The position numbers were made by a program, and so were the translations under genes. The notes beneath the pieces are model-generated. The model worked only from the letters and a program-made list of their open reading frames with translations. It was not told where the DNA came from and did no database searches. This document shows, in pieces, positions 3,543 to 55,778 of a stretch of 64,000 bases of DNA. The stretch's first letter is position 1. Each line of letters begins with the position of its first letter. This stretch comes from a virus. The stretch lies in IMG/VR virus record IMGVR_UViG_3300045988_151163, positions 10,857-74,856 of that record, one strand, 5' to 3'.

Positions 3543-5189
3543 CTAATTACTTTCTCCTTCCTCGGTCTTTATTGTTGTATTATATAAACTAACCAATGCA
3601 TTATATGCACTATCATCATTATCTGTATTGTAGTAAGATAAATTAGCTTTATAATCAGATTCAGAGACTTCTGTATCATAAAATTGAACATCTAAATCAT
3701 AAGAACTTAATCTATCTTCTACCTTCTTATAAACTCTACCCTTAATTGAAGTACCATAAATTTGTAAATCATATAAATTAAAAGCAGAATCAGAATGTGA
3801 AGTTAATTTAAACTTAGATGTAGGAATGTGGTTTACATATTTAACAATAGTAGTAACTTTAGAGGTATTTACAAAGGCATCTGCGGCATCCACCCAGATC
3901 CCAAGGTCTGGATTCCAAGTTTGTAAGACTGGAATACCATTACCCGTACTAGATACTACAAATTTTACCATATCTATTTGAACTTCCTCATTGAAGTTAA
4001 ATATTAAACTAAAATTAGAATCAGGTAAAGAAATTGAAGTATCTTCTTTTCCATCAAATAATTTATAAATATCTGTTTTAGCTATTCCTACTAAATTGTC
4101 TAAATCAAATCCACCTGCGGTTAAATTCGATAAATCACTATCTGCGGTTAAAGTATCCATAATTGGTTCATGCAATGCATCAAATGTTTCATTATTATGA
4201 TAAGAGATATAAAAATTATTCTGTTTAATATCTTTTAATAAATCTCTTAAATCCATTTGACCAGATTCGCCTTTGCCAACATCTATATAAAGATTACCAT
4301 GAATCTTAACATCGCCATTCTTATAAACTTCAAAGGCATTATTTCTTTGTTCCATAACGCCATTACCAACTTCAAAAACTGTTGTATTTTTATTGTCATT
4401 GTAAAAACCACAAACAGTCTGATAATCATATCCAGCTATAGTTCTGTAACCTTCTGCATGACATCCTAATTGTTGCTTCGCAGCATCGCCCACTTCAACA
4501 ACTCCGCCAGCCTGAGTTTCAACGCCCTCCGCATGGCAGCCTGAACTAAGAACTTTAGTTTGTACACCTTCCGCATGTCCGCCAAGAATTGCAAGATTTA
4601 ATTCATCTTTTTTGATTATTTCTTGGCTACCTGTTGTTTCTCCACTTACTGTACCATTTGCTGCGGTTTCGCCTACTTTAGTATCTATACCCTCAGCATG
4701 TGAGTAGTGACCAGCGGCTACCGCGCCACTGCCCTCTGTATGCGAACTTTGTCCACTTGCTATTGTTGATGAGCCTTCTGCATGTGCATAAAGCCCAGTT
4801 GTATTAGTCAAATATCCTTCACTATGTGAAGCTACTTCTTTAGACTTTGTAATCCATCCTTCTGCATGAGAATAATCTCCGCTAGCTTCACATTTATATC
4901 CCTCTGCATGAGATCCACTACCTGAAGCTATAGTTTGAAAATTCTGAGTAAAAGAATAATCTCCAGATGCGTTAGTCTCAAATCCAGTTGCTGTAGCGCC
5001 TTCACCGGTTGCGCTATTATTAGTATTTAAAGTAACACTATTATTGCCAATCGCGGTTTCTTCTTTTCTATTGACGCTAAGCGAGCCTTCAATAACAGGG
5101 TTTGTTCGACTTATCATTGTTTTTCTAGCTTGCTCGTCTCTAACATTATAAAGAGAGCCTTCTAGTTTTACCTGTGAAACTTCCTCCAT
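3543..5189 (-). CDS. tail fibre protein with about 10 tandem x-S-H-A-E-G repeats (beta-helix-like)
   Basis: repeats GSHAEGY, YSHAEGW, ASHSEGY, YAHAEGS, SSHTEGS, YSHAEGI, GGHAEGV, GCHAEGV, GCHAEGY read directly in the translation; SD AAAGGAG. Confidence 0.55.
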   Translation of the reverse strand: MEEVSQVKLEGSLYNVRDEQARKTMISRTNPVIEGSLSVNRKEETAIGNNSVTLNTNNSATGEGATATGFETNASGDYSFTQNFQTIASGSGSHAEGYKCEASGDYSHAEGWITKSKEVASHSEGYLTNTTGLYAHAEGSSTIASGQSSHTEGSGAVAAGHYSHAEGIDTKVGETAANGTVSGETTGSQEIIKKDELNLAILGGHAEGVQTKVLSSGCHAEGVETQAGGVVEVGDAAKQQLGCHAEGYRTIAGYDYQTVCGFYNDNKNTTVFEVGNGVMEQRNNAFEVYKNGDVKIHGNLYIDVGKGESGQMDLRDLLKDIKQNNFYISYHNNETFDALHEPIMDTLTADSDLSNLTAGGFDLDNLVGIAKTDIYKLFDGKEDTSISLPDSNFSLIFNFNEEVQIDMVKFVVSSTGNGIPVLQTWNPDLGIWVDAADAFVNTSKVTTIVKYVNHIPTSKFKLTSHSDSAFNLYDLQIYGTSIKGRVYKKVEDRLSSYDLDVQFYDTEVSESDYKANLSYYNTDNDDSAYNALVSLYNTTIKTEEGESN

Positions 5190-17367: not shown

Positions 17368-17376
17368 TCTTATTCT

Positions 17377-17417
17377 ATTATAACCAAAAATAGCGGAGAG
17401 GTCAAGTCCTCTCCGCA
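17377..17417 (-). promoter_or_regulatory. terminator hairpin after the tape measure protein (GCGGAGAGG/CCTCTCCGC + T-run) whose loop/stem carries the -35 (TTGACC-17-TATAAT) of the giant tail gene promoter
   Basis: read on minus strand. Confidence 0.5.
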
Positions 17418-17426
17418 TAATTTCTG

Positions 17427-46486: not shown

Positions 46487-46607
46487 AGAAGATATAAAAA
46501 TCTTCTCTTTTTTAATGGGCATAATACTTTAGCGCGTTAAAGCGTTACAGTTCACTGCACTAAAGCGACTTCCGCAACCATCGAACACCTGGTCTGCTGC
46601 CCGAAAA

Positions 46608-46637
46608 ATTATACCACAGGTGACCGCACTTTGTCAA
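46608..46637 (-). promoter_or_regulatory. isolated minus-strand consensus promoter; followed on plus side by TTGCACAA..TTGTGCAA terminator 46646..46693
   Basis: rc TTGACA-18-TGGTATAAT. Confidence 0.45.
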
Positions 46638-46794
46638 GAGAAAATTTGCACAAATTTACAAGTTTTTTCAATCCCGAAATTGTGCAATTTTTTTATAAAA
46701 AACTATTGACTTTTGTTACCTAAAGTAGTATTATAATACTTGTAAGGAACAGAAACAACACGATAGCTGAAAACAGAAACTTACAAAAAAGGTG

Positions 46795-46823
46795 TTGACA
46801 AACTCAATAAGATGTGCTATAAT
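46795..46823 (+). promoter_or_regulatory. early promoter (gene 46857)
   Basis: TTGACA-17-TATAAT. Confidence 0.6.
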
Positions 46824-46856
46824 AAGTACAGAAATTAAGGAAAGAGGTAGTTGAGT

Positions 46857-46985
46857 ATGAAAGTTGTTAAAATTGAGAAGCATGGTTGCAATTATATTGT
46901 TGGTTTCGAGGGTGGCGCGGTTCGTCACTTCTGCGGCAGTGAGATTGAGTTCCAGGCTTGGCTTGAGAAGAAAACAAAAAAGTAG
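46857..46985 (+). CDS. hypothetical 42-aa protein (paralog of 47062 gene)
   Basis: promoter 46795..46823, SD GGAAAGAGGT; MKVVKIEKHGC... resembles MKMVVVKLGG... Confidence 0.45.
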   Translation: MKVVKIEKHGCNYIVGFEGGAVRHFCGSEIEFQAWLEKKTKK

Positions 46986-46995
46986 TAAAAAGGGG

Positions 46996-47024
46996 TTGAC
47001 AAACCCCACAAGGTATGGTATAAT
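46996..47024 (+). promoter_or_regulatory. early promoter (gene 47062), -35 inside GGGGTT/AACCCC hairpin
   Basis: TTGACA-17-TGGTATAAT. Confidence 0.6.
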
Positions 47025-47061
47025 AAATACATAATAAAGAAAAGGAAAGAGGTAAAAAATT

Positions 47062-47175
47062 ATGAAGATGGTTGTTGTTAAACTTGGCGGAGTTGTTGTT
47101 GACAAGGATTGCTACTCACTTGCGAAGATTCGTGAGATTGAGAAAGCTGGATTCACGGTTGAGAGTGTCAAGTAG
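47062..47175 (+). CDS. hypothetical 37-aa protein
   Basis: promoter 46996..47024, SD GGAAAGAGGT. Confidence 0.45.
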   Translation: MKMVVVKLGGVVVDKDCYSLAKIREIEKAGFTVESVK

Positions 47176-47230
47176 GCACTCTCCATAGGGTTTGAAGATT
47201 TGGTTGTTTGAAAGGAAAGAGGTAAAAATT

Positions 47231-47641
47231 ATGTTTATGGTTTTGGAAAATGGTTGTAAGACGATTGTAGTAACAAGTATTGAGGGCTTTAATATTTATA
47301 GCTATATTGACTTTATCGAGGGACTTTGGGAGAGCGATGAGTCAGACTTCTGGGATAGTAATGGCAATGAGATTGACTTCTGGGGAACAATGGAGATGAT
47401 CGCTGGCTATCTCGATATGGGCGAAACTGTGAAAACTTCAAGCAATCCGCATGAGTTCTCATATGGCGATGATTTCTTCCTTGTTGGAGATAGTGTTCAG
47501 GCTAATATCAAGCATATCGTTGATTTTATTGCTGAAGTTATTGGAACGCATGATGAGTTTACTTGCTGGGGTTTGCTTCGTATGATTGCAATGTCTGATG
47601 TTACAGAATATACAAACAATATTCATATCAAAAGAATTTAG
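47231..47641 (+). CDS. hypothetical acidic protein (136 aa)
   Basis: SD GGAAAGAGGT 8 nt before ATG 47231. Confidence 0.55.
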   Translation: MFMVLENGCKTIVVTSIEGFNIYSYIDFIEGLWESDESDFWDSNGNEIDFWGTMEMIAGYLDMGETVKTSSNPHEFSYGDDFFLVGDSVQANIKHIVDFIAEVIGTHDEFTCWGLLRMIAMSDVTEYTNNIHIKRI

Positions 47642-47648
47642 AAAGGGG

Positions 47649-47677
47649 TTGACAAAAGTAAGAGCATATGATACAAT
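47649..47677 (+). promoter_or_regulatory. promoter driving non-coding segment 47684..47790
   Basis: TTGACA-17-TACAAT; no ORF/RBS downstream. Confidence 0.5.
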
Positions 47678-47795
47678 ATAGGTACAAACAAAAGATAGGA
47701 AGAGATAGAGGCTCACCACTCAGTTGACAGGTTATCTAATAGGTGGTCGGTTGACTGAGGAGCCGAAGCCTTCCATATGGATTTAAAAAATAGTT

Positions 47796-47824
47796 GTTGA
47801 CAAATAATAATAAATATGATATAA
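47796..47824 (+). promoter_or_regulatory. promoter driving non-coding tRNA-like segment, then gene 47980
   Basis: TTGACA-17-TATAAT. Confidence 0.5.
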
Positions 47825-47838
47825 TAAATATAGAAATA

Positions 47839-47907
47839 AGGGATAGTAGGCTAAATGGCAAACCGCTAATGCGCATAGAAACAAGAGTTCGATTCTCTTC
47901 TATCTCA
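47839..47907 (+). ncRNA. tRNA-like fragment (acceptor GGGATAG/CTATCTC + T arm AAGAG-TTCGATT-CTCTT, degenerate D/anticodon arms)
   Basis: canonical T-loop and 7-bp acceptor pairing but no foldable anticodon arm. Confidence 0.3.
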
Positions 47908-47979
47908 AGCAAGGCGAACCTAGGAATGACCTTTTGCAAATAGAATAGCTAGGATAAATAAAGGAAAGAGGTAAAAAAT

Positions 47980-48229
47980 ATGAAGAAAATCTATGTAGTT
48001 AAAGAAAAAGAACTGCTATGGGGTAAAAGAAAAAGCATATTTTACAAGCAAAGATAAATGTATCGGCTTTATTCTTGGAAAAATAGAGGATTGTAAAAAA
48101 GCTTGTGATATAAAATCTGATAAATGGGATTATGAAAACAAACACTTAAATAAAAAAGATTTGTTTAATTGGATGTTTTTTGATACGCACAATAATTATT
48201 TTATAGTATCAACTATTACAGTTTATTAA
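47980..48229 (+). pseudogene. frameshifted small Cys-containing gene (MKKIYVVKEKEL...; reading frame broken in an A-tract, continues +1 to 48229)
   Basis: SD GGAAAGAGGT; 25-aa ORF stops at 48057 while a +1 frame stays open about 75 codons from about 47999 with no start of its own. Confidence 0.35.
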
Positions 48230-48237
48230 AATAAGTA

Positions 48238-48266
48238 TTGACAAACAATAGAAAGTATGTTATAAT
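48238..48266 (+). promoter_or_regulatory. early promoter (gene 48298)
   Basis: TTGACA-17-TATAAT. Confidence 0.6.
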
Positions 48267-48297
48267 AAAAAAAAGTTAAGGAAAAGAGGTAAAGAAT

Positions 48298-48462
48298 ATG
48301 ACAATAGGAATTTTTAAAAATGGGCATGTTGATTGGTTTTATAAGTGTACTGACATTGAGGTAACAGAGGGTTTTATCAGATTTAAGAAGAATAATAACA
48401 AAGATATGCTTTGTTTCTTTTTTCGTAATATTGAAGGATATGCTATTAGGGAAGAGGTGTAG
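48298..48462 (+). CDS. hypothetical 54-aa protein
   Basis: promoter 48238..48266; SD AAAAGAGGT. Confidence 0.5.
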   Translation: MTIGIFKNGHVDWFYKCTDIEVTEGFIRFKKNNNKDMLCFFFRNIEGYAIREEV

Positions 48463-48465
48463 CAG

Positions 48466-48600
48466 ATGGAAATTATAATTGCTTTTGGTTGCGGATGCGT
48501 GTTTATTATACCGCCATTGATCGCGGCAAGTGTCAGCGATGCAGTTCAGCGCAAGAAAAAACGCAACGAAATTTTGAAAAATTTTGGAATTAAGCCTTGA
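48466..48600 (+). CDS. 44-aa membrane peptide
   Basis: SD GGAAGAGGT; hydrophobic core. Confidence 0.4.
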   Translation: MEIIIAFGCGCVFIIPPLIAASVSDAVQRKKKRNEILKNFGIKP

Positions 48601-48625
48601 CAAATTAGTCAAGGCATGGTATAAT
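48597..48625 (+). promoter_or_regulatory. early promoter (gene 48658); -35 embedded in perfect palindrome GCCTTGAC-N6-GTCAAGGC
   Basis: TTGACA-17-TGGTATAAT. Confidence 0.6.
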
Positions 48626-48657
48626 AAATACATAATAAAGGAAAGGGAGTAAAGAGT

Positions 48658-48843
48658 ATGAAAGTTGCAAGAAAGATTACTGTTCCAAAAAAAGAATATG
48701 AGGTTCTCGATAAATTTCTTGATATGTGTAATGAAATAGGATTAGAAACTGATGAGCTTGTTGATTTGCTTAATGCAATTTCTAATAAAGATTCAGAATT
48801 TGACTGGGCAGGGATTACATATGATATTGAGTACTTAGCTTAG
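48658..48843 (+). CDS. hypothetical 61-aa protein
   Basis: promoter 48597..48625; terminator 48842..48867. Confidence 0.55.
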   Translation: MKVARKITVPKKEYEVLDKFLDMCNEIGLETDELVDLLNAISNKDSEFDWAGITYDIEYLA

Positions 48844-48879
48844 GGGCTATATAGCCCCTAATTTTTTTACAACAAAAGC

Positions 48880-48957
48880 TTGACATATCGCGGCAGTTGT
48901 GATATAATGGAATTTTGAGATGAAAATACCCTAGAAAAAATTTTTCATTTTTCTCTT
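48880..48957 (+). ncRNA. promoter (TTGACA-17-TATAAT) followed after about 10 nt by hairpin+T-run terminator: predicted about 45-nt non-coding transcript
   Basis: no ORF; TGAAAAT/ATTTTCA stem + TTTTTCTC. Confidence 0.4.
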
Positions 48958-49048
48958 GACAAATTAAATGAAATATGATATACTGGGCGGCCCGCGCACC
49001 ATCGCAGCGGGCCGAAATATTATACCACACATGACTCAGGTTTGTCAA
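48956..49048. repeat. convergent-promoter unit U2: plus promoter 48956..48984, GC hairpin 48985..49014, minus-strand promoter 49019..49048
   Basis: TTGACA-17-TATACT; GGGCGGCCCGCG..CGCAGCGGGCCG; rc TTGACA-18-TGGTATAAT. Confidence 0.6.
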
Positions 49049-49066
49049 GACTAATTTTCAAAAAAG

Positions 49067-49113
49067 TTATCCACAATTTACTATCCCGAAATTGTGGATA
49101 ACTTTGTGGATAA
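49067..49113. promoter_or_regulatory. three consensus DnaA boxes (TTATCCACA at 49067..49075; TGTGGATAA at 49094..49102 and 49105..49113), two forming a hairpin with TCCCGAA loop
   Basis: exact match to TTATNCACA consensus, 3 copies in 47 bp. Confidence 0.5.
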
Positions 49114-49119
49114 CTCCTA

Positions 49120-49148
49120 TTGACAAATAGGATTCTATGCGGTATAAT
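49120..49148 (+). promoter_or_regulatory. early promoter (gene 49183)
   Basis: TTGACA-17-TATAAT. Confidence 0.55.
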
Positions 49149-49182
49149 ACATACATAAGGTAAAGGAAGGGCGGTTGATAAT

Positions 49183-49326
49183 ATGATGGTATTTGAAGTT
49201 ATGGGGTACACGATAGTTGGATATGGGTATCGCTGGACAGTCACCCGCAATGGTGTACACGTTGGTACATATTCTGATACATGGGTAAATATCAGAAATG
49301 CAATTATTTTGAAAAAAATCAAATAA
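49183..49326 (+). CDS. hypothetical 47-aa protein
   Basis: promoter 49120..49148. Confidence 0.4.
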   Translation: MMVFEVMGYTIVGYGYRWTVTRNGVHVGTYSDTWVNIRNAIILKKIK

Positions 49327-49330
49327 GGGG

Positions 49331-49359
49331 TTGACAAATACCCCTAAACATGGTATAAT
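49331..49359 (+). promoter_or_regulatory. early promoter (gene 49394)
   Basis: TTGACA-17-TGGTATAAT. Confidence 0.6.
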
Positions 49360-49393
49360 CATTATAGAAAATAAAGAAAGGAAGTTGTTAGAT

Positions 49394-49624
49394 ATGACAT
49401 TTTTAGGTTTTTGTGGAATTGGTGGAGCATGTGTTATTGCTTTCTCTTGTGGATGGTTCTTTTTGATGGTAGCATATGCTATTTTTGCTGAGTGTGCAGG
49501 ACTTCCGATGCCTTTTGATGAAGATTATTTGATTTGTAAAATCAATCTGTATTTTTGGCTGGGTACTATGTGTTTAGGTATCATTCTTTGGCTTATTGTT
49601 GCTATTGCTAGTCTTTTTAATTAA
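49394..49624 (+). CDS. small membrane protein (76 aa)
   Basis: promoter 49331..49359; SD AAAGGAAG. Confidence 0.55.
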   Translation: MTFLGFCGIGGACVIAFSCGWFFLMVAYAIFAECAGLPMPFDEDYLICKINLYFWLGTMCLGIILWLIVAIASLFN

Positions 49625-49628
49625 AGTA

Positions 49629-49657
49629 TTGACAAATATCTTTAAATATGATATAAT
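49629..49657 (+). promoter_or_regulatory. early promoter (gene 49690)
   Basis: TTGACA-17-TATAAT. Confidence 0.6.
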
Positions 49658-49689
49658 AAATATAGAAAATGAAAGAGAGGTAAGAGATT

Positions 49690-49854
49690 ATGGAAAAAGG
49701 TGGAATTAGTTTTAGTGGTTTATTGTTTATTACTCTTTTGGTTTTGAAGTTGGTAAAAGTAATTTCAATATCATGGGTTTGGGTTTTTGCTCCTTTGTGG
49801 ATTCCATTGGGCATCACACTCATTTGTATTATTATTGGAATATTTATTCATTAG
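49690..49854 (+). CDS. 54-aa membrane peptide
   Basis: promoter 49629..49657; SD AAGAGAGGT. Confidence 0.5.
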   Translation: MEKGGISFSGLLFITLLVLKLVKVISISWVWVFAPLWIPLGITLICIIIGIFIH

Positions 49855-49871
49855 AAAGAGGGGTAATAGTT

Positions 49872-50105
49872 ATGAGAGAAGTTATTTATAAGGTAACAAA
49901 GCCAGGACGTGTAGGTTTTGCAAAACGCAAAACCCTCGAACATGCACAGAGAACTGCACAGAATATCCACGGAGAATACAAGGCGATTCTTGTAGACCCC
50001 GAAATTGCAACAAAGACTTTGATTGCAAGTTCGCCTATGCGTCAGCGTATGATTGCACAGTTTGGAAGAGTGCACCCTAGTTTGAAAAATAGGGTTGACA
50101 AGTAG
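49872..50105 (+). CDS. hypothetical basic protein (77 aa)
   Basis: SD AGAGGGGT 8 nt upstream. Confidence 0.5.
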   Translation: MREVIYKVTKPGRVGFAKRKTLEHAQRTAQNIHGEYKAILVDPEIATKTLIASSPMRQRMIAQFGRVHPSLKNRVDK

Positions 50106-50123
50106 TCAACCCTATGGTATAAT
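50095..50123 (+). promoter_or_regulatory. early promoter (gene 50149); -35 in palindrome GGGTTGAC-N5-GTCAACCC
   Basis: TTGACA-17-TGGTATAAT. Confidence 0.6.
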
Positions 50124-50148
50124 AGATATAGAAAGTGAGGTAAACAAA

Positions 50149-50457
50149 ATGAAAATTTATATTATTCATGAAGATAATGATGGTGTTATTGGAGTAGCAG
50201 ATAGTTATGAAAGTGCAGTTCAATTTCTTATTGATAAAGAGTGGATAACAGAAGATTTTGAAATTTGGAATAGAGAAAACAATTACAGCCGTCCTCTTTA
50301 TACTTTTGAAATCAAGCCAGAAGACATTAAAGCATGGAATATTAGCAAGTTTAATGATTTCTTTGATGGAGATTTTGAGATTGAAGAGGCTAATCTCATA
50401 ACAGATGCACGTAATAAAATTGAGGAGGTGCTTGCCAACGATGGGTTGGAGTCATGA
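50149..50457 (+). CDS. hypothetical acidic protein (102 aa)
   Basis: promoter 50095..50123. Confidence 0.55.
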   Translation: MKIYIIHEDNDGVIGVADSYESAVQFLIDKEWITEDFEIWNRENNYSRPLYTFEIKPEDIKAWNISKFNDFFDGDFEIEEANLITDARNKIEEVLANDGLES

Positions 50458-50608
50458 TTATACTTTTGATTATCTTAAAGAGCAGGCTAACCAAAAATCA
50501 AAAGATGCAACATGTGACAAGATTCTTAGCCACATCAATAGAAATCCTTGCATAACAGTAGCCGAGTTGAGAAAATTTATCATTGACTTAAAAAATAATG
50601 GTTTTTAA
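50441..50608 (+). CDS. hypothetical 55-aa protein
   Basis: GAGGAGG SD 10 nt upstream; bidirectional terminator 50591..50622. Confidence 0.5.
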   Translation: MGWSHDYTFDYLKEQANQKSKDATCDKILSHINRNPCITVAELRKFIIDLKNNGF

Positions 50609-50622
50609 CCATTATTTTTTTT
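50591..50622. terminator. bidirectional intrinsic terminator (AATAATGGTT/AACCATTATT with A-run and T-run)
   Basis: perfect 10-bp stem flanked by A6 and T8. Confidence 0.6.
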
Positions 50623-50632
50623 GAAATTAAAC

Positions 50633-50724
50633 TTGACAAAGTTCCTTTGATATGATATAATGGCGGCGCGCTTGCGGTTGGGGCGCGCCGCAATATTATA
50701 CCACATGTACCCGCAGTTTGTCAA
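50633..50724. repeat. convergent-promoter unit U3: plus promoter 50633..50661, GC hairpin 50662..50691, minus promoter 50695..50724; terminator 50743..50779
   Basis: TTGACA-17-TATAAT; GGCGGCGCGC..GCGCGCCGC; rc TTGACA-18-TGGTATAAT. Confidence 0.6.
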
Positions 50725-50911
50725 GACTAATTTTTGAAAAAATTGCACAAAAATTTTTCTCCCGAATTGTGCAATTTTTACGAAAAGAATCTGATAAAAA
50801 ACGCAAGAATTTTGTATCAATCCATGCTTAAAAGTAGTATTATAATACTTGTAAGGAAGAGATAACAACATGATAGTTGAAAACAAACTTCCTAAAGAAA
50901 ATAAAAAAATG

Positions 50912-50940
50912 CTTGACAAAGCAAACTAAATGTGCTATAA
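50912..50940 (+). promoter_or_regulatory. promoter followed by about 95 nt non-coding leader, then promoter 51041..51069 for the exonuclease gene
   Basis: TTGACA-17-TATAAT twice in tandem. Confidence 0.5.
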
Positions 50941-51101
50941 TAAATACATACAAGGGAGCTGATAAAGCTTGAAACAAAACCCTGTCGAGTGCGTAAGGAA
51001 GTCAAGGTACAGTAAAGGTTGAAAAAATTTGAAAAAGGTCTTGACAAACTCCCTTGAATATGTTATACTTAGTACATAAGGTAAAGGAAAGAGGTAAAAA
51101 A

Positions 51102-51800
51102 ATGGAAAAAAAGATTGATAGAAGAATTAAGTACAGAGCAGTTGTTGATACAGAAACTTGCCCTGTTGACAAAGACTTGAAAGATGTAATTCCTAGTAAT
51201 ATGTGGACGTATGATTTTGGTTTCGCAATCGTAGATAAGAATGGCAACGTATATGAAGCATATAGCTTTGTCAATGCGGATATCTTTATCGGAGAGCGTG
51301 AGTTGATGAAGTCTGCCTATTATGCCAACAAGATTCCGCAGTATTGGGAAGATATCAAAGCAGGCAAGCGCACACTTGCAACATTTTACAATATTAGAAA
51401 GAAATTCTTTGAAGTGTGCGAAGAATACGGAGTAGAAGAAGTTTACGCCCACAATATGCGATTCGATCATGGAACATTGAATACAACAGAAAGATGGTTG
51501 ACAAAATCAAAATACCGCTATTTTTTCCCATCACAATATATTATTTGTGATACTTTGAAGATGGCAAGGGATGTTATTCTAAAAATGTCAACATACAAAA
51601 GATTTTGTGCTGAAAATGGCTATGTTACAAAGAATGGGCAGCCAAGAGCAACCGCTGAAATTCTTTACAGATTCATCAAAAAAGATAATGATTTTATAGA
51701 AAGCCACACCGCACTTGAAGATGTGCTAATCGAGAAAGAGATTCTTGCCTATTGTTTCAAGCAACATAAAAAAATGCGTCGGCTCTTGTGGGAAAATTAA
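51102..51800 (+). CDS. DEDDh-family 3'-5' exonuclease (DnaQ/RNase T-like)
   Basis: Exo I VVDTETCP, Exo II YAHNMRFDHG, Exo III HTALEDV; promoter 51041..51069. Confidence 0.7.
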   Translation: MEKKIDRRIKYRAVVDTETCPVDKDLKDVIPSNMWTYDFGFAIVDKNGNVYEAYSFVNADIFIGERELMKSAYYANKIPQYWEDIKAGKRTLATFYNIRKKFFEVCEEYGVEEVYAHNMRFDHGTLNTTERWLTKSKYRYFFPSQYIICDTLKMARDVILKMSTYKRFCAENGYVTKNGQPRATAEILYRFIKKDNDFIESHTALEDVLIEKEILAYCFKQHKKMRRLLWEN

Positions 51801-51809
51801 AATTCCCAC

Positions 51810-51838
51810 TTGACAAACCGCCTAAAGTGTGGTAATAT
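51810..51838 (+). promoter_or_regulatory. early promoter (gene 51870)
   Basis: TTGACA-17-TAATAT. Confidence 0.5.
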
Positions 51839-51869
51839 ATAATAGAAGAAAGAAAGGAGAAGAAAAGGT

Positions 51870-52193
51870 ATGAAAACAAGAGCGCAGTTGATAGAAGAAA
51901 TCATGGCTGAGTTTGAAAAAGACGGCGAACCAGTAAGCGAAGAAGAAGCTGGTAAAATTGCTGATTTAGAAATCAAAGCCAAGGAAAACAATGTTAAACA
52001 CTATGAGCGTAGCATAAAGCCACGAGACAAGCCAACAAAAGAGAGAAAAATAGACGTAGAAAAATTAAAAATTTTAGAACAAATCCAAGCTACCCTTGAG
52101 GAATACGGATTTACAGTGAAAAGGGAGCGAGAGGTTGCGCTACATTTTGGAAACTATGAGTTGAAACTCATTAGACATAAAAAAAGTAGTTGA
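51870..52193 (+). CDS. hypothetical K/E-rich protein (107 aa)
   Basis: promoter 51810..51838; SD AAAGGAG. Confidence 0.55.
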   Translation: MKTRAQLIEEIMAEFEKDGEPVSEEEAGKIADLEIKAKENNVKHYERSIKPRDKPTKERKIDVEKLKILEQIQATLEEYGFTVKREREVALHFGNYELKLIRHKKSS

Positions 52194-52218
52194 CAAACAA
52201 TAAAAAATGTGATATAAT
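52190..52218 (+). promoter_or_regulatory. promoter with only an 8-codon ORF downstream; tandem with 52281..52309
   Basis: TTGACA-17-TATAAT. Confidence 0.45.
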
Positions 52219-52280
52219 AATTATAGAAAGTGAGGGAAGGAAAAATGAGAAGTCCGCCGAAAAGAAAATAAAAAAAATAG

Positions 52281-52309
52281 TTGACAAAATAAAAAAAGTA
52301 TGATATAAT
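52281..52309 (+). promoter_or_regulatory. early promoter (gene 52345)
   Basis: TTGACA-17-TATAAT. Confidence 0.6.
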
Positions 52310-52344
52310 AAATATATAATAAAGAAAGAAAGAGGTAGATAGTT

Positions 52345-52716
52345 ATGGAAAAGAAGATTACACAGAAGGAAATGTTCAATGAGGTTATCGCACTTGCTAC
52401 TGCAAACGGTAGAGAGGACATTGTGAAGTTTGCCGAGGAAAGAATCGCGGCACTCGATAAGAAGTCCGCAAACCGTAAGCCATCGAAGAATCAGACTGCA
52501 AACGAGGAAATCAAGGCTAAAATCCTGGAGTTCCTTGAGGGTTCGGACGGAAATACTTGTACCGAAATCAAAGATGGTCTTTCCGGTGACTACTCACTCA
52601 ATAAGATTGTAGCACTGATGACGCAGTTGTCAGGCGGTGCAAAGCCAAAGGATGGTGTTGAGTATCCAGTGGTTAGATTTGCTGAGGGTAAGGTGGTTAA
52701 GTTCCGCCTTGCCTAA
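52345..52716 (+). CDS. hypothetical protein (123 aa), paralog of the 55380 gene; winged-helix-like
   Basis: shares ANRKPSKNQTANEEIKAKIL...CTEI...YSLNKIVALMTQL with 55380..55778; high GC; promoter 52281..52309. Confidence 0.55.
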   Translation: MEKKITQKEMFNEVIALATANGREDIVKFAEERIAALDKKSANRKPSKNQTANEEIKAKILEFLEGSDGNTCTEIKDGLSGDYSLNKIVALMTQLSGGAKPKDGVEYPVVRFAEGKVVKFRLA

Positions 52717-52741
52717 GCAGTAAAAAATTTCATAAAGGGGC

Positions 52742-52770
52742 TTGACAAACAAGCCCCTATATGATAAAAT
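52742..52770 (+). promoter_or_regulatory. promoter of the two-tRNA unit; -35 in hairpin GGGGCTTG/CAAGCCCC
   Basis: TTGACA-17-TAAAAT, tRNA 5' end 13 nt downstream. Confidence 0.55.
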
Positions 52771-52783
52771 ATAATTAAGACAT

Positions 52784-52921
52784 GGGGATGTAGCTCAGTG
52801 GTAGAGCGGTGGCTCGTTAAGCCACGTCACATTGATGATACCCCTCTAAAAGCACTTTTGACTTAATCAACCAAGGGTGGGCGTTAGAGACGGGGCGAGA
52901 GTTCGATTCTCTCCATTCCCA
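52784..52921 (+). tRNA. aberrant tRNA-like gene: canonical acceptor, D, anticodon (loop UCGUUAA, GUU=Asn, C at position 33) and T arms, but a 71-nt insertion at the variable-loop position (52826..52896)
   Basis: GGGGATG/CATTCCC acceptor pairing, D arm GCTCAGTGGTAGAGC, anticodon stem GTGGC/GCCAC, T arm GAGAG-TTCGATT-CTCTC; driven by promoter 52742..52770. Confidence 0.45.
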
Positions 52922-52930
52922 ATTAAAAAT

Positions 52931-53002
52931 AGGCGTGTGGCTCAATGGAAAAGCAACGGTCTCCAAAACCGCGATTTACAGGTTCAAATCCTGTCGCGCC
53001 TG
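52931..53002 (+). tRNA. tRNA-Trp (CCA)
   Basis: acceptor AGGCGTG/CGCGCCT, anticodon arm CGGT-CTCCAAA-ACCG, T arm ACAGG-TTCAAAT-CCTGT; GGTCTCCAAAACC is typical of tRNA-Trp. Confidence 0.75.
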
Positions 53003-53036
53003 CTAATACAGTAAAAGATTGTTACCTCCTTTCCTT

Positions 53037-53066
53037 GGGTGCGAGAAATCGCACCCTATTTTTTTG
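53037..53066 (+). terminator. intrinsic terminator after tRNA-Trp (GGGTGCGA/TCGCACCC + T7)
   Basis: hairpin + T-run. Confidence 0.65.
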
Positions 53067-53075
53067 AAAAAGTGC

Positions 53076-53170
53076 TTGACAAAAATTGATTTTTGTGTTA
53101 TAATGGGCGGCGCGCCATAGGTCGCGGCGCGCCGAACTTCCAGTATACCATAATCCCGGCTTTTTGTCAA
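53076..53170. repeat. convergent-promoter unit U4: plus promoter 53076..53104, GC hairpin 53105..53134, minus promoter 53142..53170
   Basis: TTGACA-17-TATAAT; GGGCGGCGCGCC..GCGGCGCGCCG; rc TTGACA-17-TATACT. Confidence 0.6.
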
Positions 53171-53215
53171 GGGTTTTTTGAAAAATTTTTTTTATTTTTT
53201 TTATCCCAAAATGCT

Positions 53216-53244
53216 TGACAAATTAAAATCTATCCTGTATAATA
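53216..53244 (+). promoter_or_regulatory. early promoter (gene 53277)
   Basis: TTGACA-17-TATAAT. Confidence 0.6.
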
Positions 53245-53276
53245 AGTATGTAAGGTAAAGGAAAGGGGTAATAAGT

Positions 53277-53690
53277 ATGAAGCATGTATTTGATAGAAGA
53301 ACTTATATTAAGTTTAATGGTTGGGAATGTTTTAAAGATACATCTATTTTTAAAGATTTGCAGTTTTTACCAGAAGAAAAAGCAACTGAAAAGTTATTCT
53401 ATATTAGAGATTTTAAAGAGTTGGTAACAAAAGTACAGAATGGGGTAATCTGTAATGCAGAAATGGACGAAACATTTTTTAAACATCGTCCAAAGGTGGT
53501 ACTTCATACTGCGGATTTGTTTAATAATTATTTTTCTATCACAGAAAAAAATTTTGCACCATTAGAAATCAAAATTGAGTATATAGAAGATAAAAACACT
53601 TCATTAAAAACTCTTTCAGGAATGCTTCCTGCTGATGATTTTGTGGAGTATCTAAAAGATAGAGAAATTTCTTTAGAAAAATTTTTATAA
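53277..53690 (+). CDS. hypothetical protein (137 aa)
   Basis: promoter 53216..53244. Confidence 0.55.
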   Translation: MKHVFDRRTYIKFNGWECFKDTSIFKDLQFLPEEKATEKLFYIRDFKELVTKVQNGVICNAEMDETFFKHRPKVVLHTADLFNNYFSITEKNFAPLEIKIEYIEDKNTSLKTLSGMLPADDFVEYLKDREISLEKFL

Positions 53691-53695
53691 AACTA

Positions 53696-53757
53696 TTGAC
53701 AAATAATATTAAACATGATATAATAAAGAAAAGATAAGGAAAGAGGTAAAAAATATG
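53696..53757 (+). repeat. about 60-bp promoter+leader+RBS block, near-identical direct repeat of 53912..53975
   Basis: TTGACAAATAATATTAAACATGATATAATAAAGAAAAGATAAGGAAAGAGGTAAAAAA in both. Confidence 0.6.
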
Positions 53758-53895
53758 ACAGTTAAAGATTTAATTAGAATATTAGAACAGTATCCATCAG
53801 ATACAGAAGTTTCTGTCTATTATGACGGCGGTGTCGCGGATAACGCCCATGAACCTGAGATAGATTATGATAATTCTAATATTATAATATGGTAA
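53755..53895 (+). CDS. hypothetical 46-aa protein
   Basis: promoter 53696..53724 (duplicate of 53912 block). Confidence 0.4.
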   Translation: MTVKDLIRILEQYPSDTEVSVYYDGGVADNAHEPEIDYDNSNIIIW

Positions 53896-53911
53896 TAAAA
53901 TAAAAAAATAC

Positions 53912-53975
53912 TTGACAAATAATATTAAACATGATATAATAAAGAAAAGATAAGGAAAGAGGTAAAAAAGATATG
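53912..53975 (+). repeat. second copy of the promoter+leader block (drives the HAD phosphatase gene)
   Basis: see 53696..53757. Confidence 0.6.
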
Positions 53976-54431
53976 AAAACATTAGTATTTGACATGGATG
54001 GAACAATCGCAAATTTCTACGGAGTAGAGGGCTGGCTTAAGGATTTACACAACGAGAATCCGCGCCCTTACATTATGGCTGAACCACTTTGGGATATGGC
54101 TTTGCTTGGTTCTCTTCTCTGTTGTTTGAAGAGCGTTGGTTACAGAATCGTTGTCACATCTTGGTTGTCTAAGGATTCTACAAAAGACTTTGACGAAGTT
54201 GTGAGAACTGCAAAAAGAGATTGGCTTACTAGATATAACTTCCCTTTTGATGAAATCCACCTTGTGAAGTATGGCACAACAAAAGCAAACTGTACACGCA
54301 AGCATGGTGGCAATCAGATTCTTTTTGATGATAACGCAAAGGTTCGCAAGGGTTGGAGCTTGGGAGAAACAATCGACCCGACCGCAGAAAATATTATTGA
54401 CTTTTTAGCTGATTTACTCTTGACAGAGTAG
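53973..54431 (+). CDS. HAD-superfamily phosphatase, 5'(3')-deoxyribonucleotidase-like (152 aa)
   Basis: motif I FDMDGT, motif II VVTSW, motif III KRDW, motif IV LFDDN. Confidence 0.65.
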   Translation: MKTLVFDMDGTIANFYGVEGWLKDLHNENPRPYIMAEPLWDMALLGSLLCCLKSVGYRIVVTSWLSKDSTKDFDEVVRTAKRDWLTRYNFPFDEIHLVKYGTTKANCTRKHGGNQILFDDNAKVRKGWSLGETIDPTAENIIDFLADLLLTE

Positions 54432-54448
54432 GTCAGCGGTGGTATAAT
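54420..54448 (+). promoter_or_regulatory. early promoter (gene 54475)
   Basis: TTGACA-17-TGGTATAAT. Confidence 0.55.
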
Positions 54449-54474
54449 AGGTATAGAAAGTGAGGTAGATAAGA

Positions 54475-54666
54475 ATGGTAATAGGAATGAAGAAATCTTT
54501 TTTCCCAACCTATAAGCAAGCTATTGAGTATGTATCAGTAATTTGTTCTCAAAGAATGGGTAATATAAAAGTTGGGTGTAAAAGAGATAAAACACTAAAA
54601 AAACCTTGGTTTGTTGAGTATACCGCTTGGTCAGAAGATTTTATTAAAAGAGAGGGATTGAAATAA
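54475..54666 (+). CDS. hypothetical 63-aa protein
   Basis: promoter 54420..54448. Confidence 0.5.
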   Translation: MVIGMKKSFFPTYKQAIEYVSVICSQRMGNIKVGCKRDKTLKKPWFVEYTAWSEDFIKREGLK

Positions 54667-55379: not shown

Positions 55380-55778
55380 ATGACAACAACAAACAAGACA
55401 ACAAAGAAGCAGTACTTTGAAATGATTATGGCTATTGAGGGCGTGTCCGAGGATATTAAGGACTTCTGTGCAAGAGAGATTGCAACCCTTGAGAAGAAGA
55501 ACGCCAACCGTAAGCCGTCTAAGAATCAGACCGCAAACGAGGAAATCAAGGCGAAGATTCTTGATGTACTTGAGGACTCTAAGCCTATGACCTGTACAGA
55601 GATTATGACCGCCTTTAATGGCGAGTATTCACTCAATAAGATTGTAGCACTGATGACTCAGCTTGCTGGTCCAGCAAAGGATGAAAACAGAGATGCTACT
55701 AAGGTATATCTTGTTCGCCGTATTCCAGATGGTAAGAAGATGACTTTCGCCCTTAATACCGAGGGTATCGAGGGTTAG
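55380..55778 (+). CDS. hypothetical protein (132 aa), paralog of 52345..52716
   Basis: shared core motif; three tandem promoters upstream (55100, 55209, 55302). Confidence 0.55.
   Translation: MTTTNKTTKKQYFEMIMAIEGVSEDIKDFCAREIATLEKKNANRKPSKNQTANEEIKAKILDVLEDSKPMTCTEIMTAFNGEYSLNKIVALMTQLAGPAKDENRDATKVYLVRRIPDGKKMTFALNTEGIEG

What the first reader, a model, noticed from the sequence alone, without database searches (positions are those of the whole stretch)
52784..52921. tRNA-like gene with every canonical arm intact but a 71-nt insertion at the variable-loop position, and C33 in the anticodon loop
The acceptor stem (GGGGATG/CATTCCC), D arm (GCTC-AGTGGTA-GAGC), anticodon arm (GTGGC-UCGUUAA-GCCAC) and T arm (GAGAG-TTCGATT-CTCTC) are all canonical. 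Between anticodon stem and T stem, however, sit 71 nt instead of 4-5 nt. The insert has terminal inverted repeats (CCCCTCT ... AGAGACGGGG) and could fold as a huge extra arm. Bacterial tRNA introns are group I introns in the anticodon loop, so this position and size are atypical. The anticodon loop reads UCGUUAA, which gives anticodon GUU (Asn) with C at the normally invariant U33. Altered anticodon loops are a known way for phage tRNAs to evade host anticodon nucleases, so this could be a nuclease-resistant decoy or substitute, or a disrupted pseudogene. A Thg1-like enzyme and a DEDDh exonuclease are encoded nearby.
Basis: partly seen in the sequence, partly recalled or inferred. Interest (0 to 1): 0.7.

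Follow-up and report, generated by a model that had tools for sequence, protein, structure and literature searches.

The report
Phage tRNA mimic with giant extra arm
A gut phage carries a gene that folds like a perfect tRNA but has a 70-base extra arm and an anticodon loop that cannot decode in its relatives, so it is most likely a new kind of tRNA look-alike RNA, not a working or broken tRNA.

Summary
Window 52784-52921 (+) matches the Rfam tRNA model over its full length (55 bits), with a 71-nt stretch between the anticodon stem and the T stem and C at position 33.

The tRNA-Asn reading does not hold.
- Ten haplotypes of the same gene from human and pig gut metagenomes carry only two anticodon loops: UCGUUAA, as here, and the 6-nt AAGGUC.
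- The loop swaps as a cassette, while the other 131 nt are 97-100% identical.
- Two relatives lack the element altogether.

A distant phage lineage (L265, L268) has the same architecture.
- It has a canonical cloverleaf, a 6-nt loop (AAUGGA or GAUGGA) and a 65-nt hairpin arm at the same site.
- The base of its arm matches the window (UCUAA/UUAGA).
- On the trimmed alignment all 27 modelled pairs are kept, 15 of them through changes on both sides.

In every lineage the element sits near a tRNA-Trp(CCA) and a second, miniature tRNA-like gene, in strongly promoted early regions.

It is not a pseudogene, an intron, a mobile insert or a known Rfam family. My best reading is an expressed, non-decoding tRNA mimic. 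Its likeliest role is as a decoy or ligand for a tRNA-binding factor such as a host tRNA-cleaving defence nuclease. That function is inferred, not shown.

The parts
52742..52770 (+). Sigma-70-type promoter (TTGACA, 17 nt, TG-n-TAAAAT) driving the element and tRNA-Trp. The -35 box sits inside a GGGGCTTG/CAAGCCCC hairpin.
   Evidence: 11 of 12 matches, extended -10. Conserved in all relatives.
52784..52921 (+). The long-arm tRNA-like gene, 138 nt: acceptor 5' strand 52784-52790, D arm 52793-52807, anticodon arm 52809-52825, extra region 52826-52896, T arm 52897-52913, acceptor 3' strand 52914-52920, discriminator A at 52921. No CCA is encoded.
   Evidence: Rfam tRNA 55.3 bits. Family model R1 scores 75.1 bits. 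Fold.
52814..52820 (+). 'Anticodon' loop UCGUUAA (C33). This is the exchangeable cassette, replaced by the 6-nt AAGGUC in most relatives.
   Evidence: The loop is 5 of 7 positions changed, against 2-3% in the rest of the element (Fisher p = 5e-5 to 2e-4). L281 carries this loop on the other allele's body.
52826..52840 (+). 5' flank of the extra arm (GUCACAUUGAUGAUA). A weak 4-bp mini-hairpin GUCA/UGAU is predicted. It contains the UGAUGA motif, which is not conserved in lineage B.
   Evidence: No variation within lineage A, so its structure is untested.
52841..52894 (+). Long extra arm: CCC + CUCUAA (52841-52849), internal loop AAG, inner stem CACUUUUG (52853-52860), 11-nt apical loop ACUUAAUCAAC (52861-52871), CAAGGGUG (52872-52879), GGCG, UUAGAG (52884-52889), AC bulge, GGG (52892-52894).
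   Evidence: Fold. The 52875 G>A change turns U.G into U-A. The outer stem CUCUAA/UUAGAG becomes AUCUAA/UUAGAU in lineage B, changed on both sides.
52931..53003 (+). Canonical tRNA-Trp(CCA), 9 nt downstream and co-transcribed. A tRNA-Trp(CCA) accompanies the element in all three lineages.
   Evidence: ARAGORN, Rfam 57.9 bits. L265 3828-3899 and L268 1821-1907.
53037..53066 (+). Intrinsic terminator (GGGTGCGA-GAAA-TCGCACCC followed by a T run) ending the two-gene operon.
47840..47907 (+). Second, miniature tRNA-like gene, 68 nt, with an anticodon arm of only 3 bp. It has its own perfect promoter at 47797-47825 and shares the T arm AGAGTTCGATTCTCT with the long-arm element. I count it as a probable partner, not a proven part.
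   Evidence: Rfam tRNA 40.2 bits. Its D and anticodon arms are replaced by a 14-nt segment in the close relative L012. Counterparts sit next to the element in L265 (3754-3817) and L268.

Best explanation
The gene makes a stable, L-shaped, non-decoding tRNA mimic.

Proposed mechanism:
1. It is transcribed from a strong early promoter, together with tRNA-Trp.
2. Because the acceptor, D and T arms and the core tertiary positions are intact (U8, A14, G15:C48, G18G19, T-loop UUCGAUU), host RNase P and RNase Z should cut it out and the host CCA-adding enzyme should add CCA, as for a tRNA. The product would be a species of about 140 nt.
3. It cannot read codons normally. Its loop is 6 nt in most family members and lacks U33 here.
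4. It carries a 17-21-bp arm at the variable position, where class II tRNAs tolerate an arm.

I propose it works by occupying a protein that recognises tRNA shape. The most likely target is a host tRNA-cleaving defence nuclease, which it would soak up or block as a decoy. The fast-changing loop would set which factor it fits, and the long arm would add a second contact.

Shown: the structure, its conservation, the loop cassette, the presence/absence polymorphism and the expression signals. Inferred: processing, stability and the decoy role.
For: 1. Real tRNA shape: Rfam 55.3 bits.

2. Structure kept across three lineages. On the trimmed alignment 189 of 189 cells are paired, and 15 of 27 pairs change on both sides. 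No shuffle in 500 reached this, and shifting the pairing register drops pairing to 40-52%.

3. The arm is conserved as a structure. In lineage B the insert alone folds as one hairpin (z = -3.0 and -4.5). All six stem substitutions between L265 and L268 keep their pairs. The base of the arm is shared between lineages A and B.

4. A family-specific model scores members at 68-75 bits, and every other tRNA in about 2.2 Mb at 49 bits or less.

5. Non-decoding loops: AAGGUC, AAUGGA and GAUGGA. ARAGORN calls 'tRNA-???' once the insert is removed.

6. Arms-race signature. The loop is replaced while the body is 97-100% identical. One recombinant, L281, carries the window's loop on the other allele's body. 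The element is absent in L274 and L280.

7. Strong early promoter and a terminator.

8. The same phages carry other non-decoding tRNA-likes with variable interiors.

9. Precedent. Host nucleases cut tRNA anticodon loops or the variable arm of tRNA-Tyr, and phage tRNAs counter them (PMC10264068, PMC13096335, PMC11555353, PMC13056530).
Against: - There are no expression, processing or binding data.
- No defence nuclease or other partner is identified, and the host is unknown.
- Only three lineages are known, so covariation inside the arm rests on a few events.
- Overall sequence similarity between the inserts of lineages A and B is not significant (z = 1.1). Only the base of the arm matches, so independent origin of the two arms cannot be excluded.
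- Within lineage A the body is no more conserved than the neighbouring intergenic DNA (94-99%).
- A decoy does not obviously need a 70-nt arm.
- The constant company of tRNA-Trp is unexplained by this model.
- Some natural relatives do without the element.
Confidence: 0.35

Rival explanations
1. tRNA scaffold for a cargo hairpin. The tRNA body only provides processing and stability. The active part is the inserted arm, acting as a protein-binding aptamer or a small regulatory RNA. The arm would differ between phage lineages because the cargo differs.
For: The distal part of the arm is unrelated between lineages A and B, while the cloverleaf and the base of the arm are kept. The arm is under structural constraint.
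Against: This does not explain why the anticodon stem is kept while its loop is the fastest-changing part. Sequences complementary to the apical loop are no more frequent in the phage than expected by chance (34 matches against 41 expected). The single exact match lies on the non-transcribed strand of a minus-strand gene, so that gene's mRNA carries the loop's own sequence, not its complement. No known protein-binding motif is present: the UGAUGA motif is not conserved and Rfam finds nothing.
Confidence: 0.2
2. Processing or stability element. tRNA-like structures at the 5' ends of early transcripts act as RNase P/RNase Z punctuation marks or as 5' protective structures for the RNA downstream (tRNA-Trp here, small ORFs elsewhere).
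For: The element and the mini tRNA-likes are the first feature after strong promoters. They lie just upstream of tRNA-Trp or of ribosome-binding sites: window 47840-47907 precedes the ATG at 47981, and L265 4077 precedes the ATG at 4098.
Against: RNase P and RNase Z need only the acceptor/T minihelix. This role does not explain conservation of the D arm, the anticodon stem and a 17-21-bp extra arm, nor the loop cassette. tRNA-Trp needs no such helper: L274 and L280 lack the element.
Confidence: 0.12
3. Aminoacylated non-ribosomal or unconventional adaptor. Some synthetases ignore the anticodon (SerRS, LeuRS and AlaRS types). If one of them charges this RNA, it could donate an amino acid outside normal decoding, or decode abnormally, for example by doublet or frameshift reading. 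In the window allele it might act as a weak tRNA-Asn.
For: The acceptor stem, T arm and tRNA core are intact. A73 or G73 is present. LeuRS and SerRS do not read the anticodon and tolerate changes in the arm (PMC9976931). ARAGORN calls tRNA-Asn(gtt) for the window allele once the insert is removed.
Against: The loops are 6 nt, or have C33. No consistent identity set exists: the discriminator varies between A and G within lineage A. The Levitt pair is G15:C48 rather than the A15:U48 of tRNA-Leu. The arm has 5' flanks of 7-18 nt, unlike class II tRNAs. The window allele combines GUU with A73, whereas Asn identity needs G73 (PMC9976931).
Confidence: 0.1
4. Decaying pseudogene. A former tRNA-Asn was hit by a 66-nt insertion and is carried along only because it lies between a needed promoter and tRNA-Trp.
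For: It is dispensable in L274 and L280. The loop is non-canonical. Within lineage A its conservation is similar to that of the adjacent intergenic DNA. One haplotype has a U.U mismatch in the T stem (L096 and L097). A relative has a normal tRNA-Asn at a syntenic distance from the Thg1-like gene (L063).
Against: All five modelled helices pair in every sequence of the trimmed alignment (7 of the 12 distinct haplotypes, spanning three lineages whose flanking genes are unrelated), with 15 pairs changed on both sides. The one known exception is the T-stem U.U of L096/L097, which was left out of that alignment. The same architecture, with a 6-nt loop and a long arm at the same site, recurs in a distant phage. 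The differences are concentrated in the loop rather than spread across the gene.
Confidence: 0.08
5. Intron-containing tRNA gene. The 66-71 nt are spliced out to give a tRNA of normal size.
For: In silico removal gives a clean 72-nt cloverleaf. Archaeal tRNAs can carry introns in the variable region (from my own knowledge).
Against: No group I or other ribozyme match appears, even at E = 10, and 66-71 nt is far too short for a group I intron. By inspection there is no bulge-helix-bulge motif at the boundaries. The promoters are bacterial sigma-70 type, and bacteria are not known to have a tRNA-splicing endonuclease (my own knowledge). The spliced product would still carry a 6-nt loop in most members.
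Confidence: 0.05

Closest known systems
Class II (long-variable-arm) tRNAs: bacterial tRNA-Ser, -Leu, -Tyr, -Sec
   Same: An extra helix emerges between the anticodon stem and the T stem of an otherwise normal cloverleaf. C48 is kept for the Levitt pair.
   Different: Their arms are about 10-24 nt and start right after positions 44-45. Here the extra region is 65-71 nt, with 17-21 bp and 5' flanks of 7-18 nt. Class II tRNAs have 7-nt loops with U33 and defined anticodons, and this family does not.
Phage T4 species 1 and 2 stable RNAs (rnaC 139 nt, rnaD 119 nt)
   Same: These are phage-encoded RNAs of similar size, sitting next to tRNA genes. rnaC has a tRNA-type T arm (CCGGGTTCGAATCCCGG) and paired ends with a non-tRNA interior. 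Their function is still unknown (PMC9697503).
   Different: rnaC lacks the D and anticodon arms and is not hit by the family model R1. There is no sequence similarity. T4 RNAC and RNAD are late RNAs, whereas this element lies behind an early-type promoter.
Phage tRNAs that evade or absorb tRNA-targeting defences (T5 and T6 tRNAs against PrrC, PARIS, retron-Eco7 and Septu)
   Same: They are phage-borne, expressed early, and altered in the anticodon loop or variable arm. They are accessory and fast-evolving (PMC10264068, PMC11555353, PMC13096335).
   Different: Those are working decoders that replace the cleaved host tRNA. Members of this family cannot decode normally, so it could only act as a decoy or inhibitor, which nobody has shown.
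YrlA / bacterial Y RNA-like tRNA mimics (Rfam RF02553)
   Same: This is a non-coding RNA with a tRNA-like module plus a long protein-binding helix. From my own knowledge, it is also found in some phages.
   Different: The Rfam YrlA match here is 14 bits against a gathering score of 69, and it spans the next gene. In YrlA the long helix replaces the anticodon arm. Here the anticodon arm is kept and the helix is added at the variable position. No Ro/Rsr gene was seen.
Archaeal tRNA genes with non-canonical introns
   Same: They carry an insert of tens of nucleotides at a position other than 37/38. I saw many tRNAs with inserts of about 50 nt in the metagenome scan.
   Different: From my own knowledge, those inserts are bounded by bulge-helix-bulge motifs and removed by a splicing endonuclease that bacteria lack. 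Here there is no such motif, the promoters are bacterial, and the loop would remain non-canonical after removal.

Membership tests
Canonical decoding tRNA (Rfam RF00005) | Cloverleaf with 7-bp acceptor stem, D arm, 5-bp anticodon stem and T arm with a TTCRA loop | tested here: met
   55.3 bits over model positions 1-71. 100% pairing in the family alignment.
Canonical decoding tRNA (Rfam RF00005) | 7-nt anticodon loop with U33 and a purine at position 37 | tested here: not met
   The window has C33. The relatives have 6-nt loops AAGGUC, AAUGGA or GAUGGA.
Canonical decoding tRNA (Rfam RF00005) | Variable region of 4-5 nt (class I) or about 10-24 nt (class II) | tested here: not met
   71 nt here and 65 nt in lineage B. 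ARAGORN does not call the gene.
Canonical decoding tRNA (Rfam RF00005) | Aminoacylation and use on the ribosome | not testable with these tools
   Needs charging assays or polysome tRNA sequencing.
tRNA-Asn | Anticodon GUU conserved among orthologues | tested here: not met
   Only 3 of the 10 lineage A haplotypes have GUU, and lineage B has none.
tRNA-Asn | Discriminator G73 (bacterial Asn identity, PMC9976931) | tested here: not met
   The window allele has A73. G73 occurs in the AAGGUC-loop haplotypes L001 and L002, and in one GUU-loop recombinant, L281.
Group I intron in a tRNA gene | Group I catalytic core, more than 200 nt, inserted in the anticodon loop | tested here: not met
   No Rfam intron or ribozyme match at E up to 10. 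The insert is 66-71 nt and lies at positions 44/45.
Archaeal-type (bulge-helix-bulge) tRNA intron | Two 3-nt bulges separated by a 4-bp helix at the exon-intron boundaries, plus a splicing endonuclease in the host | tested here: not met
   By inspection of the predicted folds, the boundaries are a plain stem with single-stranded flanks. The promoters are bacterial. Presence of the enzyme could not be tested.
Mobile palindromic insert (MITE/RPE-like) | Several copies in the genome, terminal inverted repeats and a target-site duplication | tested here: not met
   The insert is single-copy in the window and in about 1.9 Mb of related loci.
tRNA pseudogene | Unconstrained decay, with substitutions that break helices and are spread evenly | tested here: not met
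   189 of 189 cells paired and 15 pairs changed on both sides. Changes are concentrated in the loop. The one exception is the T-stem U.U in L096 and L097.
Y RNA-like YrlA (RF02553), tmRNA, small self-cleaving ribozymes, C/D-box or K-turn RNAs | Score at or above the Rfam gathering threshold; for K-turn RNAs, conserved tandem G.A motifs | tested here: not met
   YrlA scores 14.1 against 69, permuted tmRNA 14.2 against 47, and SNORD104 13.9 against 40. The GAUGA motif changes to GAUAA in L268, where it is simply one strand of a hairpin.
T4 rnaC-type stable tRNA-like RNAs | Homology to T4 species 1 RNA | tested here: not met
   R1 does not hit rnaC in L144 and there is no BLAST similarity. The resemblance is in concept only.

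The most novel reading that the evidence does not exclude
Gut phages of Bacillota may carry a previously undescribed module of three co-occurring RNAs: a long-arm tRNA mimic, a miniature tRNA mimic and a tRNA-Trp(CCA). In this reading the mimics are programmable anti-defence RNAs. The L-shaped body recruits a host tRNA-targeting immune nuclease or sensor. The exchangeable 6-7-nt loop sets which one. The long arm jams or sequesters it. This would be the first non-decoding tRNA decoy class, and a possible explanation for the 50-year-old puzzle of stable tRNA-like RNAs such as T4 rnaC and rnaD.
Probability: 0.2. Interest if true: 0.8.

Novelty: new variant of a known kind. Interest (0 to 1): 0.62.

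Why it matters
Phage tRNA genes are now understood largely as weapons against host tRNA-cleaving immunity, but all the known cases are working tRNAs. A conserved RNA that keeps the tRNA shape, cannot decode, has a swappable loop and carries a large added arm would extend that arms race to pure mimics. It would also give a testable function to the class of orphan tRNA-like stable RNAs in phage tRNA clusters, such as T4 rnaC and rnaD.

There are two practical consequences:
- Standard tRNA finders miss these genes. ARAGORN finds none of them.
- Rfam labels them simply 'tRNA', so annotation pipelines would either drop them or miscall them as tRNA-Asn.

The tolerance of a 70-nt arm at the variable position may also interest people who design tRNA scaffolds.

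Tried and rejected
1. **K-turn or C-box reading of UGAUGA in the insert.** Rejected. In L265 the motif is one strand of a plain hairpin, and it becomes GAUAA in L268. No partner GA is correctly placed.

2. **Kissing pair between the anticodon loop and the apical loop of the arm.** The candidates were GUUAA with UUAAU in the window, and AAGGUC with GACUU or GACCU in L001 and L002. About 20% of random loops would do as well, the register shifts between alleles, and lineage B has no such pairing. Not supported.

3. **Loops displaying the Trp codon UGG to pair with the neighbouring tRNA-Trp anticodon.** True for AAUGGA and GAUGGA, but not for either lineage A loop. Left as an idea only.

4. **Antisense target of the apical loop within the phage.** Not enriched, and the one exact match is on the wrong strand.

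5. **Mobile-element origin of the insert.** The insert is single-copy.

6. **Known RNA families.** Nothing beyond tRNA, even at E = 10.

7. **Y RNA resemblance** (GCACUUUUGACUUAAUC against human Y1 GCACUUGACUAGUC, recalled from memory). The stretch lies in a loop here, has no complementary strand, and is absent in lineage B.

8. **Cultured-phage relatives.** None. Only the generic 5' half matches other tRNAs.

9. **Further family members.**
   - Exact and degenerate pattern scans of viral contigs found only the two lineages.
   - The genome scan gave two unrelated hits.

10. **Functional link to the Thg1-like gene.** Of the 80 Thg1-like loci fetched (±10 kb flanks), 60 were scanned with ARAGORN and 12 had a tRNA gene near the Thg1-like gene. 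The model R1 found no further long-arm element in 79 of these loci; L012, already known to carry the element, was not rescanned. No link could be shown.

11. **Global sequence homology of the lineage A and B inserts.** Not significant. The case for common origin rests on the site of insertion, the base of the arm, the loop type and the neighbouring genes.
Full report
**1. The observation**

Window 52784-52921 (+) reads GGGGATG TA GCTC AGTGGTA GAGC G GTGGC TCGTTAA GCCAC [71 nt] GAGAG TTCGATT CTCTC CATTCCC A.
- The Rfam tRNA model matches it end to end at 55.3 bits (gathering score 29, E = 3.5e-9). It places the whole insert between model positions 44 and 45, and the loop has C at position 33.
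- ARAGORN misses the intact gene. With the insert removed in silico it calls tRNA-Asn(gtt).
- The RNA folds as a cloverleaf plus an extra arm at -50 kcal/mol, z = -3.1.
- The 'terminal inverted repeats' are the base of the arm. The insert is single-copy.

**2. Context**

The window is a low-GC (about 32%) tailed phage.
- Terminase, portal, a sigma-factor-like protein and a tail protein lie on the minus strand, by PHROG matches. The same strand carries two giant ORFs, which were not scanned.
- The portal protein is 40% identical to gut phage Phass-1 and 32% to Enterococcus phages of about 140 kb.
- Identical or near-identical contigs come from human and pig gut metagenomes.
- Positions 46.5-54.5 kb form an early-type region packed with 22 perfect TTGACA-N17/18-TATAAT promoters.
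- The element has its own promoter (52742-52770). It is followed after 9 nt by a canonical tRNA-Trp(CCA) at 52931-53003, then by a terminator at 53037-53056.
- A Thg1-like gene lies 8.7 kb upstream. No DEDDh exonuclease turned up among the 30 ORFs scanned, 20 of them against Pfam and the rest against PHROGs only.

**3. Close relatives (lineage A)**

Neighbour-gene look-ups and pattern scans recovered the locus in 23 further loci, from about 19 independent contigs. These give 10 haplotypes of the element.
- Only two 'anticodon' loops occur: UCGUUAA, as here, and the 6-nt AAGGUC, which is the commoner. The loop differs at 5 of 7 positions, while the other 131 nt differ at 0-4 positions.
- The loop is far more divergent than its surroundings (Fisher p = 5e-5 to 2e-4). 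The body has 2.3-3.1% differences, against 8-10% over the surrounding 2-4 kb.
- The immediately adjacent intergenic DNA is also 94-99% identical. Selection within lineage A is therefore suggestive, not proven.
- L281 carries the UCGUUAA loop on the body otherwise linked to AAGGUC, so the loop behaves as an exchangeable cassette.
- The other substitutions mostly keep the pairs: G4.U to A-U in the acceptor stem, U.G to U-A in the inner arm stem, and G-C to G.U in the T stem of L279. The exception is a U.U mismatch in the T stem of L096 and L097.
- The discriminator varies between A and G.
- Two independent contigs, L274 and L280, lack the element. In them the -10 box abuts tRNA-Trp, and the 160-nt difference is flanked by AAAAT repeats. 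The gene is therefore accessory.

**4. A distant lineage with the same architecture**

I scanned metagenomes with a generic pattern: a D arm, then 65-95 nt, then a T loop. Of the 120 hits returned, 41 had a closing acceptor stem and T stem. The other 79 were not classified individually; those read by eye included tRNAs followed by partial tRNA copies.
- Of the 41, 29 lacked an anticodon hairpin next to the D arm. Those I read had inserts in or beside the anticodon arm.
- The other 12 had that hairpin. Most of these were complete tRNAs followed by a partial tRNA copy.
- One of the 12, L232, was a true counterpart. It is the same phage as the 100-kb viral contig in L265. A relative whose adjacent downstream protein is 83% identical was then found in L268 and L269.
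- These elements are 131 nt: TTCTCTA TA GCTC AGTGGTA GAGC G GCCCT AATGGA AGGGT [65 nt] ATAGG TTCGATT CCTAT TAGAGGG A. The loop is 6 nt (AAUGGA, or GAUGGA in L268).

The insert is at the same site, and alone it folds into one long hairpin (z = -3.0 and -4.5).
- The base of the arm and its 3' flank match the window: AUCUAA-AGC...UUAGAU-ACCGGC against CUCUAA-AAGC...UUAGAG-ACGGGGC. The first pair changes on both sides.
- The distal arm is unrelated, and overall similarity between the inserts is not significant.
- Between L265 and L268 all six substitutions in stems keep their pairs.

On a trimmed alignment of seven distinct sequences:
- All 27 pairs (acceptor, D, anticodon and T stems, plus the outer arm stem) are formed in 189 of 189 cells.
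- 15 pairs change on both sides, and no shuffle in 500 reached this.
- Shifted pairing registers give 40-52% pairing.
- Compensatory differences in the four cloverleaf stems would be seen between any two tRNAs. They show that both sequences are intact, not that they are orthologous.

A covariance model built from this alignment scores family members at 68-75 bits, and every other tRNA in about 2.2 Mb at 49 bits or less.

**5. Companions**

In all three lineages the element is accompanied by a tRNA-Trp(CCA) and by a miniature tRNA-like gene with a stunted anticodon arm.
- The tRNA-Trp is canonical here, aberrant in L265, and has a variable arm of about 20 nt in L268.
- The miniature gene is at window 47840-47907, at L265 3754-3817, and just upstream of the tRNA-Trp in L268.
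- The window's miniature gene shares its T arm with the long-arm element. In the close relative L012 its whole D and anticodon region is replaced by 14 nt.
- Other non-decoding tRNA-likes with 6-nt loops occur in related phages (L065, L069 and L265 5819-5917).

**6. What it is not**

- **Not a decoder or tRNA-Asn.** Most members have 6-nt loops, and this one has C33. The window pairs GUU with A73, although Asn identity needs G73 (PMC9976931).
- **Not a pseudogene.** The helices are intact across lineages.
- **Not an intron.** There is no ribozyme match and no bulge-helix-bulge motif. The setting is bacterial, and the product would still be non-canonical.
- **Not mobile.**
- **Not a member of any non-tRNA Rfam family.** YrlA, tmRNA and snoRNA-like matches are far below threshold.
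- **Not a K-turn RNA.** The motif is not conserved.
- **Not in any cultured phage in the collection**.

**7. Most likely mechanism**

- Shown: a conserved L-shape-compatible core, a structured extra arm, a non-decoding and exchangeable loop, accessory status, and strong early expression signals.
- Inferred: excision by RNase P and RNase Z with CCA addition, giving a stable RNA of about 140 nt. I further infer that it acts as a tRNA mimic on a tRNA-recognising protein.
- The pattern of a fast-swapping loop, presence/absence and early expression resembles counter-defence genes.
- Host nucleases that cut anticodon loops or the variable arm of tRNA-Tyr, and phage tRNAs that counter them, are established (PMC10264068, PMC11555353, PMC13096335, PMC13056530).
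- I therefore favour a decoy or inhibitor of a tRNA-targeting defence factor, at confidence about 0.35.
- I put about 0.8 on the weaker statement that this is a functional, non-decoding, tRNA-shaped RNA.
- The rivals are a tRNA scaffold carrying a cargo hairpin, a processing or stability element, an anticodon-independent aminoacylated adaptor, a pseudogene and an intron.

**8. Comparison and novelty**

- In concept the closest things are class II tRNAs (an arm at the same site, but a third of the size and decoding) and the orphan stable RNAs of phage T4.
- T4 rnaC is 139 nt, has a T arm and paired ends, and is still of unknown function (PMC9697503). It is not detectably homologous.
- I found no description of a tRNA with a 65-71-nt variable-position arm and a 6-nt loop in four relevant full-text searches.
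- I rate it a new variant of a known kind (phage tRNA-like RNAs), with interest 0.62.

Noticed in passing
window 47840-47907 (+), promoter 47797-47825; L012 about 14600-14655: A miniature tRNA-like gene (Rfam 40 bits, missed by ARAGORN) with a 3-bp anticodon stem lies in the 5' leader of a small ORF whose ATG is at 47981. In a close relative the acceptor stem and T arm are kept, but the D and anticodon arms are replaced by the 14-nt TACTGGTGCATATG.
   Followed up: partly
window 46500-54500: The density of perfect consensus promoters is extraordinary: 22 sites with 12 of 12 matches to TTGACA-N17/18-TATAAT, most with an extended -10 TG. There is one in front of almost every small early ORF. In all, 58 promoter-like sites were found against 30.5 expected.
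   Followed up: no
window 47700-47770 (+), after promoter 47649-47677: A long imperfect hairpin (GGCTCACCACTCAGTTGAC...GTTGACTGAGGAGCC) is transcribed from its own promoter with no ORF. It may be another small RNA.
   Followed up: no
L274 (whole) and L280 about 660-760: In haplotypes that lack the element, the -10 box TAAAAT directly abuts the first base of tRNA-Trp. A start from this promoter would then fall inside the acceptor stem and give a 5'-truncated tRNA. Every phage of this group that I retrieved encodes a Thg1-like 3'-5' polymerase, but that gene was itself my search query. Thg1-like enzymes repair exactly such 5' truncations (PMC4820378). This is speculative and was not tested.
   Followed up: no
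L150, L163, L165, L168, L186, L198, L201, L214, L215, L242, L244, L264 and others (metagenome loci): Many tRNA genes of 110-140 nt carry an insert of about 50 nt inside or just before the 5' strand of the anticodon stem. The insert often ends in GGTTAYNTCG-like sequence, and several such genes can sit on one contig (for example L145, L157, L168). They are probably archaeal-type non-canonical introns. The source organisms were not identified.
   Followed up: no
L077 13432-13800 and L039 13442-13810: In phages whose Thg1-like protein is 59-62% identical to the window's, a tRNA 3' half (T arm + CATTCACA) is followed after 4 nt by a matching tRNA 5' half (GTGGATG + D arm) with no T arm downstream. 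Next come four spaced repeats of GGCTATNT...TTCCTTCT. This is either a permuted or rearranged tRNA-like region, or a set of small-RNA repeats.
   Followed up: no
L268 1821-1907; L265 3828-3899; L265 5819-5917; L065 5164-5234; L069 3809-3879; L265 336-412: Further odd tRNA genes occur in these phages: a tRNA-Trp(CCA) with a variable arm of about 20 nt, a tRNA-Trp-like gene with an aberrant T loop, a 99-nt tRNA-like with a 6-nt loop, tRNA-likes with the 6-nt loop GUUGGU, and a tRNA with an 8-nt loop (4-base anticodon tcaa).
   Followed up: partly
window 52345-52716 and 55380-55778: Two paralogous small proteins (phrog_19455, 55% identical) flank the tRNA operon region. Metagenomic variants (P0003, P0004) are mosaics of the two paralogues, which points to recombination between them.
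   Followed up: partly
window 10264-17418 and 17427-26087 (-): Two adjacent giant ORFs of 2384 and 2886 aa lie in the structural module. They were not analysed.
   Followed up: no
L071-L073 4697-4810: A 114-nt tRNA-shaped sequence has a good acceptor stem and T arm and a non-tRNA interior of about 46 nt. It lies in prophage-like contigs from isolate genomes that also encode the Thg1-like protein.
   Followed up: no
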